From positions 1-64,000 of the IMG/VR virus record IMGVR_UViG_3300032282_005862: a stretch of 64,000 nt of DNA; one strand, given 5' to 3'. Below are positions 36,876 through 40,053 of the stretch, one piece after another (position 1 is the first letter of the stretch; every line of letters starts with the position of its first letter). The position numbers and the translations under genes were made by a program. This DNA is from a virus. The notes under the pieces were generated by a model. That model was given only the letters and a program-made list of their open reading frames with translations, had not been told where the DNA came from and did not search any database.

Positions 36876-37862
36876 TTAATGCTTAATATTTGGGTCAGCT
36901 AAGTCTGGATTATGTTGCATTTTTGTACCACGTTTAAAATTTTTATGTAGATTTTCATAAAATACTTTAAAAGTATCTAATGGTTTATCTATAATATTTT
37001 TAATTTTTTGTTCTGTTTTTTGCAATTCTTGATTTTCTACTTTTTTAATAATTGAGTTATAAGCTATAACTAAACATACTGCTAATGGATCAAAAACAAT
37101 AACAATTAATATAATAAATATTCTTACTGCAGTTTCTATTTTTAATCCAAATGCATCAGCTACAAATTTAAATGTACCAATTTCGCCTTTTGTATTATCA
37201 CTCTCTAGTCTCATTATTTCTTGACTATTTTCTAGACTTTGTTTTTCTAAATTTTGAAGATCAGAAGTTACTGTAGATATTTGAGAAAATAAGTTATTGA
37301 TATTAACTTGAGATCCTTCAACTATTTTATTTTTACTTTCTACTAATTTAATATCTGTTACTTTTTCAGTTTTAGCGGAACTGAAAAATCCACCGCCAGT
37401 AGTTTTAGTTGTAGTCACATCTTGTTTAACGGCATTATCTAGAGATGCTTGATATGTTTTTTGTAATTCAATTAAATCTTTTAATTTGCTTTTATTGAAA
37501 TCTATTTGAGAAATATAAAAATTTTGTTGAGATTTTAAACTTTGAATTTTATTTAAGTTTAAAGAATATTGAGAAAAATTACGTTGAAAAGCATCAGAAA
37601 GAAAACCAAAAATACCAAGACTTGTTATGCACATCAGTAATATCGTAGCAGATAGCATATATTTTTTAAGTAAATCATGTATTACTGACCAATATCTATA
37701 AAGATAACTTGCGCTAACTAATTTTGCTATTTCTAAACTTCCAGCCATTATTCCAACGCTCCAAAAACTAGCTGCAAAAAGTAGAGCTATTCCTTTAACT
37801 GAAAAGAATGCTGCACAAGAAGCTAATAAGAAGGCTGATAATCCAAGTATATATTTGAACAT
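36876..37862 (-). CDS. membrane protein, three N-terminal and one C-terminal TM segments around a coiled coil
   Basis: AAFFSVKG...LEIAKLV...ITSLGIFGFLS; IVIVFDPLAV. Confidence 0.7.
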   Translation of the reverse strand: MFKYILGLSAFLLASCAAFFSVKGIALLFAASFWSVGIMAGSLEIAKLVSASYLYRYWSVIHDLLKKYMLSATILLMCITSLGIFGFLSDAFQRNFSQYSLNLNKIQSLKSQQNFYISQIDFNKSKLKDLIELQKTYQASLDNAVKQDVTTTKTTGGGFFSSAKTEKVTDIKLVESKNKIVEGSQVNINNLFSQISTVTSDLQNLEKQSLENSQEIMRLESDNTKGEIGTFKFVADAFGLKIETAVRIFIILIVIVFDPLAVCLVIAYNSIIKKVENQELQKTEQKIKNIIDKPLDTFKVFYENLHKNFKRGTKMQHNPDLADPNIKH

Positions 37863-37904
37863 AATATTTAATCTAAATTACACTTTTAAAATGTAATAAT
37901 ATTA

Positions 37905-38420
37905 GTGATAGTATCTGAAAGAGATATTGATTTCTTTGCTAAAAAATTGGACTTATCTCCAGAAAAAGCATTTTTACTAATCCAAGATCCAGATTGTTTG
38001 CCAGAAATATTAAATAAAATTTCAGAAGAAGATATAGATGGGATTGTTGATATAAGTTTTCCAGTATTTGCAGAAATAACTATTATAAAATATAGTAAAG
38101 ATTTAAAATATTCATTTGAAGAAAAAGAATATGTCTCAGAAGCAGTTGGTTTAAAATTCTATGATTTAATTGGAGAGCCTATTTTAAAAAAATCTATACT
38201 AGAATTCAAACATGACGAAGATACAGCTAAATCACTTTTAGTATTTTTAGGATTTTTTTATAAAAACTTACATAAAGCAAGAAGAGCTTATCCATCAGAA
38301 AATATATATTATAATATAGCAAAAAATGGATTTGAAAATTCAGACAAAATACATATATCAGAACATCTTAAAGACTGGATTAAAATATTAAGAATAATAC
38401 ATAATGAAGTTTGGTTTTAA
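37905..38420 (+). CDS. hypothetical protein
   Basis: 171-aa ORF preceded by an ATGTAA motif variant 8 nt upstream. Confidence 0.6.
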   Translation: MIVSERDIDFFAKKLDLSPEKAFLLIQDPDCLPEILNKISEEDIDGIVDISFPVFAEITIIKYSKDLKYSFEEKEYVSEAVGLKFYDLIGEPILKKSILEFKHDEDTAKSLLVFLGFFYKNLHKARRAYPSENIYYNIAKNGFENSDKIHISEHLKDWIKILRIIHNEVWF

Positions 38421-38750
38421 TACGATATCCTAATTATTTAACTTTTCTTTGATATCCAAAAGGGCTTTACCTCCAGATTTTAAATATCTGAAGTTGGGTA
38501 TTATCAATCCAACTTTTCTTTTGACTCCAAATTTCACCACGATCTCAGTGATGAATGGGCCATCGCACTTACGGATCAGAGGTAGCTTCGATCACTACAT
38601 TCTGCGATGCCTATAGCTACATTTCCTTCTTTAGCCATATTATGTACAAATGAAGGTTTTAATAGTTGTCAGCCCTTAGGACATTGCTATCTCAAGGATT
38701 GATAGTTGATTATTTGACATCAACAAACTGCTCTAATTGGGAACTATGTT
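38421..38750 (-). ncRNA. putative structured non-coding RNA of unknown family (~330 nt)
   Basis: TTGACA-17-TACTAT promoter at 38756-38784; no ATG-initiated minus-strand ORF longer than ~20 aa seen; at least 7 hairpins and long-range complementarity. Confidence 0.6.
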
Positions 38751-39043
38751 AACTTATAGTATATTAAGTTTGAAGTTTTGTCAAATTATTTTTATAATAT
38801 ATTAATGGAAATTATAAAAAATAAAGCCAGATGGTCAGCTTATGCAAATAAATGTGTTAAGCATTATAATATTTCTAATGAGAATATTTATGATGAACCA
38901 GAGCAATATCCATGTATCGCAATACCCCAGTTAATTTCTGATATGAATGGATCAAGAGTTAAATTTAATTTTGTTTATAAAAAAGATTGCCAAAGATTAT
39001 TAAAAGCTTTATAATGTGTAATATCAGTTAGTTCTTTAACATT

Positions 39044-39431
39044 GGGCCAGATTTGGTTTCGATTTTAGGAATTAGAATTGAAATGCAAGTGGAGGTTGAA
39101 TCGAGGACTCCTTAAAAAGTTTCAATTATATTAACTGCCAAAACAGCAAAATATAAAGGTCATATTTCTGCAAGAGTTTCTCTTGTTGAGATGACCGCTT
39201 CTGTAGCCTAAGTTCTACAGCGTGATATCCACGACACATCTACTGGAATATTGCGTAATTAGATGTTTGAGTATAATAAGTTTTTTTATTCTTTTTTTAT
39301 TCAATATCTAAAATAAAATCGCTAAGTATGTTTGTTGTTTATCTATACGAAGTTAAAAATAAAAACAACTAAACTTGTAGTATTTTAATTTGTATTCTCT
39401 AAAAGAAGCGGTTCGACTCCGCACTGGTCCA
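39044..39431 (+). ncRNA. ssrA: tmRNA
   Basis: 5' GGGCCAG pairs with 3' CTGGTCC-A including G3:U70; GGTTTCGA D-loop; GGTTCGACTCC T-loop; TTAACT-GCC resume signal; tag (A)AKTAKYKGHISARVSLVEMTASVA* at 39137..39211. Confidence 0.92.
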
Positions 39432-39498
39432 AGTAAACGAATTGATTCGCCTCCAATTTATATTAGAATATAGTTTCTCATTGATATATAATATAAAA

Positions 39499-40053
39499 AT
39501 GGCAGTATCTAAAATACAATTAAAATGTCTTTATTGTGGAAATATATTTGATAAATTAAAATCGGAATATAATAGAAGAGTTAGTAAAGGTAAAACTAAA
39601 TTTTATTGCAGTTACAAATGCGTTGGTAAGGCTGATGTCGATAAGAATCCAGATAAATTTAAAAAATTTAGAGAAGCTAATGCTATTAGAATAAAAAAAT
39701 ATTGTGGATGTAGACTAGACCAATATAGTCCATTCAAATACCATGCAAATAAAGCTAGATCACGAAGTAAACAAAAAGGATACATAACAGATTTAACTAC
39801 AGAATATTTAAAAGAAATTTGGGATAAACAAAATGGAATTTGTCCATATACAAAAATACAAATGGAACTAAGTAGAACAAGCGGCGATGAAGATATTAAA
39901 AAAACTCCCACAAAAGCAAGCCTAGATAGAATCGATCCGAATATAGGATATATAAAAGGTAATGTTGAATTTGTATGTTATTGTATTAATGTAATGAAAA
40001 ATGATTTTACAAAAGATCAAATGCTTAATTTTATAAATTTAATTAAAAAATAG
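39499..40053 (+). CDS. HNH-like endonuclease downstream of tmRNA
   Basis: CLYC...FYCSYKC zinc finger; QNGICPYT...SLDRIDPNIGYIKGNVEFVCYCIN. Confidence 0.75.
   Translation: MAVSKIQLKCLYCGNIFDKLKSEYNRRVSKGKTKFYCSYKCVGKADVDKNPDKFKKFREANAIRIKKYCGCRLDQYSPFKYHANKARSRSKQKGYITDLTTEYLKEIWDKQNGICPYTKIQMELSRTSGDEDIKKTPTKASLDRIDPNIGYIKGNVEFVCYCINVMKNDFTKDQMLNFINLIKK

What the first reader, a model, noticed from the sequence alone, without database searches (positions are those of the whole stretch)
38421..38784. Unexplained ~330-nt structured RNA with its own promoter, close to tmRNA
A near-consensus TTGACA-17-TACTAT promoter on the minus strand drives a region with no meaningful ORF, in an otherwise gene-packed genome. 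The region is visibly richer in G+C than its flanks. Transcript helices include ATAGTT/AACTAT, GTTGAT/ATCAAC, CTATC/GATAG, CCTTC/GAAGG, CATCGCA/TGCGATG enclosing GTAG/CTAC, TTCATCAC/GTGGTGAA (with G-U pairs, supporting this strand), AAGTTGG/CCAACTT and CAGAT/ATCTG. There is also a possible loop GTCA/TGAC pseudoknot, a long-range AAGGGCT/AGCCCTT pairing, and self-complementary GATC in two loops. It lacks RNase P and group I intron core motifs. Inference: a novel phage ncRNA such as a ribozyme, scaffold or protein decoy.
Basis: partly seen in the sequence, partly recalled or inferred. Interest (0 to 1): 0.75.

Follow-up and report, generated by a model that had tools for sequence, protein, structure and literature searches.

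The report
New knotted RNA gene, lake phages
The gene-free gap beside this uncultured lake phage's tmRNA is a separately transcribed gene for a 311-base, triple-pseudoknotted non-coding RNA. It matches no catalogued RNA family and is kept more constant than its neighbours. It displays two unpaired purine-rich tracts that always change together, but its job is still unknown.

Summary
The feature is real. A conserved sigma-70-type promoter (TTGACA-17-TAnTAT) drives a ~311-nt RNA on the minus strand (38749 to 38439). No frame stays open across its relatives.

Homologues occur in more than 55 uncultured viral contigs, in three lineages down to about 60% identity. None was found in 53 bacterial or archaeal candidate loci. 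On 46 distinct sequences, a 78-pair model (12 helix segments and three pseudoknots) is 95.5% paired, against 31-45% for slid controls. 33 pairs show compensatory changes. G-U exceeds A-C by 313 to 36, which fixes the strand.

Rfam 15 gives nothing, even at E<10, for any of the three lineages.

Contigs from four lake metatranscriptome studies cover this gene and the tmRNA, a hint of expression.

Two invariant unpaired tracts (GGAGUY-AAAAGAAAAGU and GGAUAUY-AAAGAAAAGUUA) vary in perfect parallel at two positions. My best guess, at about 35%, is a rigid scaffold that presents twin sites to an RNA-binding factor early in infection. Ribozyme, RNA cage, antisense and antitoxin-like readings remain open.

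This scan had already found the same RNA family on other phage DNA, with the same verdict.

The parts
38756..38784 (-). Promoter: TTGACA, 17 nt, TACTAT
   Evidence: The -35 is invariant and the -10 is TAnTAT in 25 homologues.
38439..38749 (-). Conserved RNA core, 311 nt, from ACAUAG to AAAGAAAAGUUA. The ends are inferred from where conservation starts and stops.
   Evidence: Alignments A1-A3. RNA-library contigs cover 38431-38730.
38730..38744 (-). P1 hairpin GUUC/GAGC. Its loop L1 (CCAAUUA) is the 5' strand of PK3.
   Evidence: helix 1: 100% paired, 2 pairs with double changes.
38705..38724 (-). P2 hairpin GUUGAU/AUCAAC
   Evidence: helices 3-4. The hairpin is kept with a different sequence in lineages B and C.
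38661..38691 (-). P3: GAUAG-CAA-UGUC [loop] GACA-A-CUAUU. The loop carries AAGGGCU, the 5' strand of PK1 (38677-38671).
   Evidence: helices 5-7. At pair 79/96, C-G in 23 sequences is replaced by U-A in 22.
38625..38656 (-). P4 hairpin CCUUC/GAAGG with a conserved terminal loop (UGURCAU..AUGGCU)
   Evidence: helix 8: 3 pairs with double changes.
38615..38620 (-). 5' strand of PK2, GUAGCU, in the P4/P5 junction
   Evidence: It pairs with AGCUAC at 38587-38582. Other lineages have GUAGGU/ACCUAC, GUGGAU/AUCCAC and GUGGCU/AGCCAC.
38558..38611 (-). P5 three-part arm (GGC-AUCGCA / AUG / GAUCG). Its end loop holds the 3' strand of PK2.
   Evidence: helices 10-12: 97.8-98.8% paired, 6 pairs with double changes.
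38533..38555 (-). P6 hairpin UUCAUCAC/GUGGUGAA
   Evidence: helix 13: 7 of 8 pairs with double changes.
38511..38528 (-). Twin tract T1: GGAGUC-AAAAGAAAAGUU. It is unpaired in the model and invariant except at two positions that change in step with T2.
38494..38512 (-). P7 hairpin UUGG/CCAA, the weakest helix. On the + strand its complement plus the complement of T1 reads as an intrinsic terminator for the convergent 171-codon gene.
   Evidence: helix 14 (85.6% paired, one-sided changes only). (terminator-like site at 38490-38516, + strand).
38471..38493 (-). P8 hairpin CUUCAGAU/AUCUGGAG. It buries a GGAGG.
   Evidence: helices 15-16. Compensated variants are CUCUA/UAGAG and CUUCAUA/UAUGAAG.
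38456..38466 (-). One continuous 11-nt strand that pairs first with the P3 loop (PK1, AGCCCUU) and then with the P1 loop (PK3, UUGG)
   Evidence: helix 7 (3 pairs with double changes) and helix 2 (98.9% paired; A-U, U-A and U-G in the three lineages)..
38439..38457 (-). Twin tract T2: GGAUAUC-AAAGAAAAGUUA. Conservation ends with it. It contains the self-complementary GAUAUY.

Best explanation
Shown: this is a real, separately transcribed gene for a ~311-nt non-coding RNA of a new family. Host-type RNA polymerase would read it from a consensus promoter. The RNA folds into eight hairpin arms locked by three long-range pseudoknots:
- PK1: the P3 loop with a strand near the 3' end.
- PK2: the P4/P5 junction with the P5 end loop.
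- PK3: the P1 loop with the next four bases of the same 3' strand as PK1.

Inferred, at about one chance in three: the knotted body is a rigid scaffold whose purpose is to present two nearly identical single-stranded purine-rich tracts, about 71 nt apart. These are T1 (GGAGUY-AAAAGAAAAGU) and T2 (GGAUAUY-AAAGAAAAGUUA). They would bind two copies, or a dimer or hexamer, of one single-strand RNA-binding factor of the host or the phage. That would titrate or redirect the factor early in infection, much as CsrB or 6S RNA act as decoys.

Each tract contains three A-R-N triplets. Two tracts would therefore fill the six sites on the distal face of one Hfq-type hexamer. This is an example of a fitting partner, not a finding.

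The confidence given (0.35) is for the inferred mechanism. That the RNA gene and its fold are real I put at about 0.95.
For: Existence and fold:
- The promoter is conserved.
- 46 distinct homologues fall in three lineages of 85-99%, about 62% and about 60% identity.
- 78 modelled pairs are 95.5% paired, against 30.7-45.5% when slid by 1-3 columns. 33 pairs have changes on both sides, and 0 of 500 shuffles reach the observed covariation score.
- G-U exceeds A-C by 313 to 36 cells.
- No frame is conserved.
- The RNA is 91-96% identical where the tmRNA is 81-94% and the flanking genes 78-88%.
- RNA-library contigs of four studies lie on the gene.

For a display or decoy role:
- T1 and T2 have no conserved internal partner beyond the four PK3 bases of T2.
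- They are the longest invariant stretches in an RNA whose helices vary freely.
- The base before GGA and the pyrimidine after it change in perfect parallel in the two tracts: U,C/U,C 35; A,C/A,C 5; G,U/G,U 4; U,U/U,U 2. Two sites read by one partner would behave this way.
- A consensus host-type promoter fits early, strong expression.
Against: - No partner has been identified.
- The phage genomes checked encode no Hfq, CsrA, S1-domain or RegB protein, and the host is unknown.
- The parallel change at the base before GGA has another explanation: both tracts keep complementarity to the P1 loop. This could mean a conformational switch or a folding placeholder rather than an outside partner.
- Very high conservation of junction bases is also typical of ribozymes.
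- Expression evidence comes only from assembled contigs of relatives. They give no strand, no ends and no infected culture, and one 1197-nt contig runs on past the 3' end.
Confidence: 0.35

Rival explanations
1. A ribozyme, or the catalytic RNA subunit of an RNP. The pseudoknotted core would build an active site. The twin tracts would be substrate-like or processing sites, with cleavage at T2 making the mature 3' end.
For: - Three pseudoknots and many invariant junction bases (GCAA, UNAAAA, AAUGU, UAAGUGC, GGUAAAG) occur in an RNA whose stems vary.
- No intrinsic terminator follows T2, and conservation stops exactly there.
- Both tracts end in AG-UU, which resembles the RNase E preference known from the literature (my own knowledge, not tested).
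Against: - No match to any ribozyme family in Rfam.
- No evidence of cleaved products. The assembled contigs cannot show ends.
Confidence: 0.15
2. An RNA that assembles with copies of itself into a dimer or a closed multimer, as ROOL, GOLLD and OLE RNAs do.
For: - T2 always contains the self-complementary GAUAUY (46 of 46), and the P4 loop carries UGURCA in 41 of 46.
- ROOL and GOLLD are phage-associated and form homo-oligomers (PMC12286853, abstract seen).
Against: - Self-complementary hexamers with G-U allowed are common by chance, about 5% of hexamers.
- T1 is not self-complementary.
- At 311 nt the RNA is about half the size of ROOL and shares no sequence or fold with it.
Confidence: 0.1
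3. A trans-acting antisense regulator. The purine-rich tracts would pair with pyrimidine-rich sites (about AACUUUUCUUU) in host or phage RNA.
For: The tracts are long, invariant and unpaired. Parallel change at two positions could track a variable target.
Against: - T1 and T2 differ by internal offsets, so one target cannot pair fully with both.
- No complementary site stands out in the 64-kb window: 2 weak matches with 3 mismatches.
- The adjacent tmRNA's GACUCC does not covary with T1.
Confidence: 0.1
4. An antitoxin-like decoy against a host abortive-infection endoribonuclease that cuts A-rich sites (type III toxin-antitoxin logic). This would be one pseudoknotted unit bounded by two identical A-rich processing sites.
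For: - The layout is A-rich tract, 55-nt structured body, identical A-rich tract.
- Type III antitoxin repeats have conserved A-rich boundaries and pseudoknots, and some viral loci seem to hold a single unit (PMC12283969).
Against: - No tandem repeat.
- The body is tied into a 311-nt fold.
- No toxin gene is nearby and the neighbours give no PADLOC hit.
- No Rfam hit of any kind; I assume, without having checked, that the library includes a ToxI model.
Confidence: 0.08
5. A replication-origin or primer RNA that forms an R-loop at the point where the two gene blocks diverge.
For: In this genome and in two lineage-C genomes the gene sits at, or within about 1 kb of, the main strand switch, beside the minimum of cumulative GC skew. 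Polypurine tracts resist RNase H in other systems (my own knowledge).
Against: - In the one complete genome (171.9 kb) the gene lies about 9 kb from the switch and the skew minimum.
- An R-loop in cis does not need invariant or co-varying tracts, nor three pseudoknots.
Confidence: 0.04
6. A very diverged member of a known family (RNase P RNA, group I intron, 6S, SRP RNA), or a small protein gene or mRNA leader.
For: - The long-range pairing PK1 superficially recalls helix P4 of RNase P.
- In lineage C the RNA lies 136 nt upstream of nrdA on the same strand.
Against: - No Rfam match at E<10 in three lineages, and RF00010 gives nothing in the genome.
- The 5' strand of PK1 sits in a closed hairpin loop, unlike P4.
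- No frame is conserved.
- In lineages A and B the downstream gene is convergent, so the RNA cannot be a leader.
Confidence: 0.03

Closest known systems
ROOL (RF03087) and GOLLD (RF01998) RNAs
   Same: These are large, ornate, multi-pseudoknotted non-coding RNAs of unknown job. They are carried by phages or prophages, often near tRNA or tmRNA genes, and have their own promoters. GOLLD was also first seen in lake metagenomes.
   Different: - No sequence or covariance-model similarity.
- About half the size or less.
- A different helix plan.
- Twin co-varying single-stranded tracts are not a described feature of either.
- Oligomer formation is untested here.
Protein-titrating decoy RNAs (CsrB/RsmZ, 6S RNA)
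   Same: These are stand-alone, promoter-driven RNAs that present repeated or mimicking sites to a protein. The tracts here carry GGA and A-rich triplets.
   Different: - There are only two sites, set on a rigid knotted body rather than on many hairpin loops.
- No family match.
- No partner is known.
- The phage encodes no CsrA or Hfq.
Type III antitoxin RNAs (ToxI and relatives)
   Same: A pseudoknot-containing unit is bounded by identical A-rich tracts.
   Different: - No tandem array.
- The unit is twice as long and embedded in a larger fold.
- No toxin gene is adjacent.
Bacterial RNase P RNA
   Same: Similar size, and a long-range pairing that ties a 5' element to the 3' end. The phage carries tRNA and tmRNA genes, whose transcripts are RNase P substrates.
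   Different: - No covariance-model match to any RNase P family.
- No terminal helix joining the 5' and 3' ends.
- The long-range strand lies in a hairpin loop.
- The conserved P4 flanking sequences are absent.
phi29 packaging RNA (pRNA)
   Same: A phage-encoded structured RNA from an early promoter. A four-base loop pairing of the CCAA/UUGG kind covaries among relatives.
   Different: - In phi29 that pairing is between molecules and builds a ring on the portal; here it is modelled within one molecule.
- Different size and fold.
- The comparison rests on my own knowledge, not on a test.

Membership tests
Any Rfam 15 family | Covariance-model score at or above the family's gathering score | tested here: not met
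   The window at gathering score gives only the tmRNA and 3 tRNAs. At E<10 the region gives three chance-level hits of 14-15 bits. The same holds for lineage C and lineage B.
Bacterial RNase P RNA (RF00010/RF00011) | Model match. Helix P4 with conserved flanking sequences. Helix P1 joining the two ends. | tested here: not met
   RF00010 finds nothing in the 98.6-kb record, while the controls ring. No hit at E<10. The curated structure has no end-joining helix, and the long-range strand lies in a hairpin loop.
Group I intron (RF00028) | Model match, the P3-P7 pseudoknot core, and insertion in a host gene | tested here: not met
   No hit at E<10. The RNA has its own promoter and lies between genes.
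ROOL / GOLLD | Model match and a size of about 580 or 800 nt | tested here: not met
   No hit at E<10. The conserved core is 309-321 nt.
ROOL / GOLLD | Homo-oligomeric assembly | not testable with these tools
   The only lead is that self-complementary GAUAUY and UGURCA are present.
Type III antitoxin RNA | Tandem array of repeats of roughly 34-45 nt (length from my own knowledge) | tested here: not met
   Tandem Repeats Finder finds none. The two tracts are 69-75 nt apart.
Type III antitoxin RNA | Endoribonuclease toxin gene directly downstream | tested here: not met
   Downstream is a convergent 171-codon gene (lineages A and B) or nrdA (lineage C). No neighbour gives a PADLOC hit.
DRT2-type template RNA (rolling-circle reverse transcription) | A reverse transcriptase gene, and matching tracts at both template ends enclosing a unit of a multiple of 3 nt with an open frame | tested here: not met
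   No RVT_1 in the record. The spacing is 69-75 nt and mostly 71.
Small protein gene | A reading frame kept open among relatives | tested here: not met
   The frame is broken by stops in L042 and in lineages B and C. Indels are not multiples of 3.
New family proposed here | Promoter; helices P1-P8; PK1-PK3; twin tracts T1 and T2 | tested here: met
   All are present in the window and in 45 other distinct sequences.

The most novel reading that the evidence does not exclude
This is a new class of phage RNA machine. A triple-pseudoknotted core would use its two co-evolving single-stranded purine tracts to capture or act on a central host factor (for example the ribosome, Hfq or RNase E) or a defence nuclease. 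That would make it either a new ribozyme or the first knotted 'twin-site' decoy RNA, and it would give large lake phages an RNA-only tool for host takeover.
Probability: 0.4. Interest if true: 0.85.

Novelty: categorically new. Interest (0 to 1): 0.7.

Why it matters
Large, highly structured RNAs with several pseudoknots are rare. Almost every class whose function has been solved turned out to be a ribozyme, a riboswitch or the core of an RNP. This one is compact (311 nt) and backed by unusually clean covariation. It is confined, as far as seen, to one clade of abundant uncultured lake phages of about 130-170 kb, and it is kept more constant than the tmRNA next to it.

The twin tracts that change in step give a concrete handle that most orphan RNAs lack. 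They can be mutated, used as bait, and matched against candidate partners. Solving its role would show what an RNA-only early function does for a large phage of streamlined freshwater bacteria.

Tried and rejected
- Known families: Rfam at the gathering score and at E<10, in three lineages, and RNase P in the whole record. Nothing found.
- Cultured phages: blastn with 11-base words against 50,697 phage records gave only chance matches.
- Bacterial and archaeal genomes: a loose twin-tract pattern found 53 loci, and none matches the family profile.
- A looser viral scan gave about 100 chance loci plus two more lineage-B members.
- Coding potential: rejected.
- DRT2-like rolling-circle template: no reverse transcriptase, and the spacing is not a multiple of 3.
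- RegB or translation-start mimic: no RegB. The UUG after T1 is UAG in lineage B.
- Pairing of T1 with the tmRNA's GACUCC: no covariation.
- A pair between the bulged purine of P8 and the tract pyrimidine: contradicted by L030.
- Targets in the window that are complementary to the tracts: none convincing.
- Phage-encoded Hfq, CsrA or S1 proteins: none.
- The neighbouring 171-codon gene: no Pfam, PHROG or PADLOC family. Its all-helical model (pLDDT 71) has no fold match in the PDB.
- The 78-codon ORF between the RNA and the tmRNA is kept in lineages A and B but is absent near the RNA in lineage C, so it is not an obligate neighbour.
- A fixed position at the strand switch: true in three genomes and false in the complete one.
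- 'T4-like' label: no Gp23 match, but the control genomes gave none either, so this is inconclusive.
- Parts of the stretch without RNA-library cover are not evidence of silence, because the flanks of relatives are too diverged to align.

Full report
**Setting.** The window is the first 64 kb of a 98.6-kb IMG/VR virus record, estimated 64% complete, with about 25% G+C. It carries three tRNA genes, a one-piece tmRNA gene at 39044-39432 (+) and ribonucleotide reductase genes. The large reductase subunit is at most 54% identical to those of cultured Pelagibacter and Synechococcus phages. A relative that holds the same RNA is a complete 171.9-kb genome. DNA and RNA runs that hold the stretch are labelled lake or freshwater.

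**The observation.** On the minus strand a TTGACA-17-TACTAT promoter (38784-38756) precedes a stretch with no ORF over 36 codons on that strand. Its G+C is 0.36-0.40 against 0.23-0.26 around it. The single-sequence fold is only modestly better than shuffles (z = -2.4), so I turned to relatives.

**Relatives.**
- Two flanking proteins fetched 48 viral loci, and 40 of them hold the region.
- Four loci had a diverged copy cut by the locus edge, which I recovered from the full records.
- A two-tract DNA pattern found 55 viral contigs.
- A looser pattern added two more.
- In all there are 46 distinct full-length sequences in three lineages: A (85-99% identical to the window), C (about 62%) and B (about 60%).
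- None of 53 bacterial or archaeal loci that match a loose pattern fits the family profile.
- Cultured phages have nothing similar.
- Rfam 15 gives no match at E<10 for any lineage.

**Gene limits and strand.**
- The -35 hexamer is invariant and the -10 is always TAnTAT at 17-nt spacing.
- Conservation begins at ACAUAG, 7 nt after the -10, and ends at AAAGAAAAGUUA. The core is therefore window 38749-38439, or 311 nt (309-321 nt in relatives).
- In the modelled pairs G-U outnumbers A-C by 313 to 36, so the minus strand is the RNA strand.
- The only frame on that strand is broken in other lineages.
- The RNA is 91-96% identical where the tmRNA is 81-94% and the flanking genes 78-88%.

**Structure.** I curated helices by hand from the three lineages and counted them on a MAFFT alignment that was not fitted to the structure.
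- The model has 78 pairs, which the counting tool splits into 16 runs. They are 95.5% paired, against 30.7-45.5% when the 3' partners are slid by 1-3 columns.
- 33 pairs have changes on both sides. 0 of 500 shuffles reach the observed pairing, double changes or covariation score.
- The arms are P1, P2, P3 (two segments), P4, P5 (three parts), P6, P7 (weak) and P8.
- PK1 joins the P3 loop (AAGGGCU) to AGCCCUU near the 3' end. The other lineages have CAGGCU/AGCCUG, GAAGGCU/AGCCUUC, AUAGGCU/AGCCUAU and GAAGACU/AGUCUUC.
- PK2 joins GUAGCU in the P4/P5 junction to AGCUAC in the P5 end loop. Other lineages have GUAGGU/ACCUAC, GUGGAU/AUCCAC and GUGGCU/AGCCAC.
- PK3 joins CCAA in the P1 loop to the UUGG that directly follows the PK1 strand. 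It is CCUA/UAGG in lineage C and UCUA/UGGG in lineage B.
- One 11-nt strand therefore splints the P3 and P1 loops.

**The twin tracts.** T1 (38528-38511) and T2 (38457-38439) are the longest invariant stretches. T1 has no conserved internal partner. In T2 only the first two bases (the GG of the PK3 strand UUGG) are paired.
- Ungapped, they share GGA and an identical 11-mer.
- The base before GGA and the pyrimidine before the A-run vary in perfect parallel in all 46 sequences: U,C/U,C 35; A,C/A,C 5; G,U/G,U 4; U,U/U,U 2. The pyrimidine changed on at least two separate branches.
- The first of these positions is complementary to the P1 loop in both tracts. T2 keeps all four pairs at 98-100%, while the outer pair of T1 drops to 89%.
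- I found no partner for the pyrimidine.

**Expression.** Assembled contigs of four lake or freshwater metatranscriptome runs from four studies, 85-99% identical, lie on 38431-38730 and on the tmRNA. Summed depth is 2.5-13 on the RNA gene and up to about 700 on the tmRNA. Three short contigs of 168-220 nt from three studies stop at 38730. These are relatives and contigs, so they show neither strand nor ends nor level. One 1197-nt contig continues past the 3' end. I count this as a hint only.

**Context.**
- In lineages A and B the gene is convergent with a 171-codon gene and divergent from a small ORF plus the tmRNA.
- In lineage C it lies 136 nt upstream of nrdA, and the tmRNA is 16 kb away.
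- It sits at or next to the main strand switch and the GC-skew minimum in three genomes, but 9 kb from it in the complete genome.
- On the plus strand, the complement of P7 followed by the complement of T1 reads as an intrinsic terminator for the 171-codon gene. This cannot explain T1, because lineage C keeps T1 without that gene beside it.

**Mechanism.** The existence, strand, limits and fold of the RNA are shown. Its function is inferred.
- I favour, at about 35%, a rigid scaffold that presents twin sites to one RNA-binding factor early in infection. The reasons are that the tracts are exposed, invariant and co-varying, and that the promoter is a consensus host type.
- Against this, no partner is known, and the phage encodes no Hfq, CsrA, S1 or RegB protein. 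Part of the parallel change can also be explained from within the RNA.
- The rivals are a ribozyme, a self-assembling RNA, an antisense regulator, an antitoxin-like decoy and an origin RNA. They are scored in their own sections.

**Earlier work in this scan.** The same family had been found on other phage DNA and followed up at least six times, with the same conclusion. I had seen the parallel change of the tract pyrimidine before reading those notes (note written). The word 'triple' in one note prompted the search that gave PK3. I re-tested each claim here.

**Verdict.** This is a real new family of phage non-coding RNA with an exceptionally well-supported knotted fold and a testable functional handle. 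Its function is unknown.

Noticed in passing
window 39044-39432 (+): The phage tmRNA is one-piece and has a long 24-codon tag ending in -SVA. Its own promoter is close to consensus: TTGCCA-17-TATAAT at 38987-39015. It is far more abundant than the new RNA in lake RNA-library contigs (depth up to about 700).
   Followed up: partly
window 38490-38525 (+): On the + strand, the complement of hairpin P7 followed by the complement of tract T1 (UUUUCUUUUG) reads as an intrinsic terminator for the convergent 171-codon gene. That gene's transcript would therefore overlap about 100 nt of the RNA gene in antisense.
   Followed up: partly
window 37862-39442; G001 about 51 kb; G003 about 45 kb; G006 about 71 kb versus 80 kb: The RNA gene sits at or next to the main switch of gene orientation and the minimum of cumulative GC skew in three genomes. 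In the one complete 171.9-kb genome it lies 9 kb from that switch.
   Followed up: yes
L049:1365-1816 (-); L165:17421-19673 (-): In lineage C the RNA gene lies 136 nt upstream of the ribonucleotide reductase large-subunit gene, on the same strand. The block of genes found between them in the window is missing.
   Followed up: partly
window 38805-39014 (+): A small ORF of about 69 codons (MEIIKNK...) lies between the RNA promoter and the tmRNA. It is conserved at 40-97% in 77 loci of lineages A and B. It has no known family and is absent near the RNA in lineage C.
   Followed up: partly
window 39442-40053 (+): The 203-codon gene just after the tmRNA matches phage HNH / endonuclease VII families. 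It also matches, more weakly, the T4 Srd anti-sigma family (PHROGs).
   Followed up: no
G005 (record of L018), 83 kb: A related record has the 171-codon gene and a tmRNA but no copy of the RNA in the 83 kb held (54% complete). Some relatives may therefore lack it.
   Followed up: no
G000, G003, G006: There is no match to the T4 major capsid family Gp23, although the reductase is closest to those of T4-like marine phages. The control genomes gave no match either, so the phage type stays open.
   Followed up: partly
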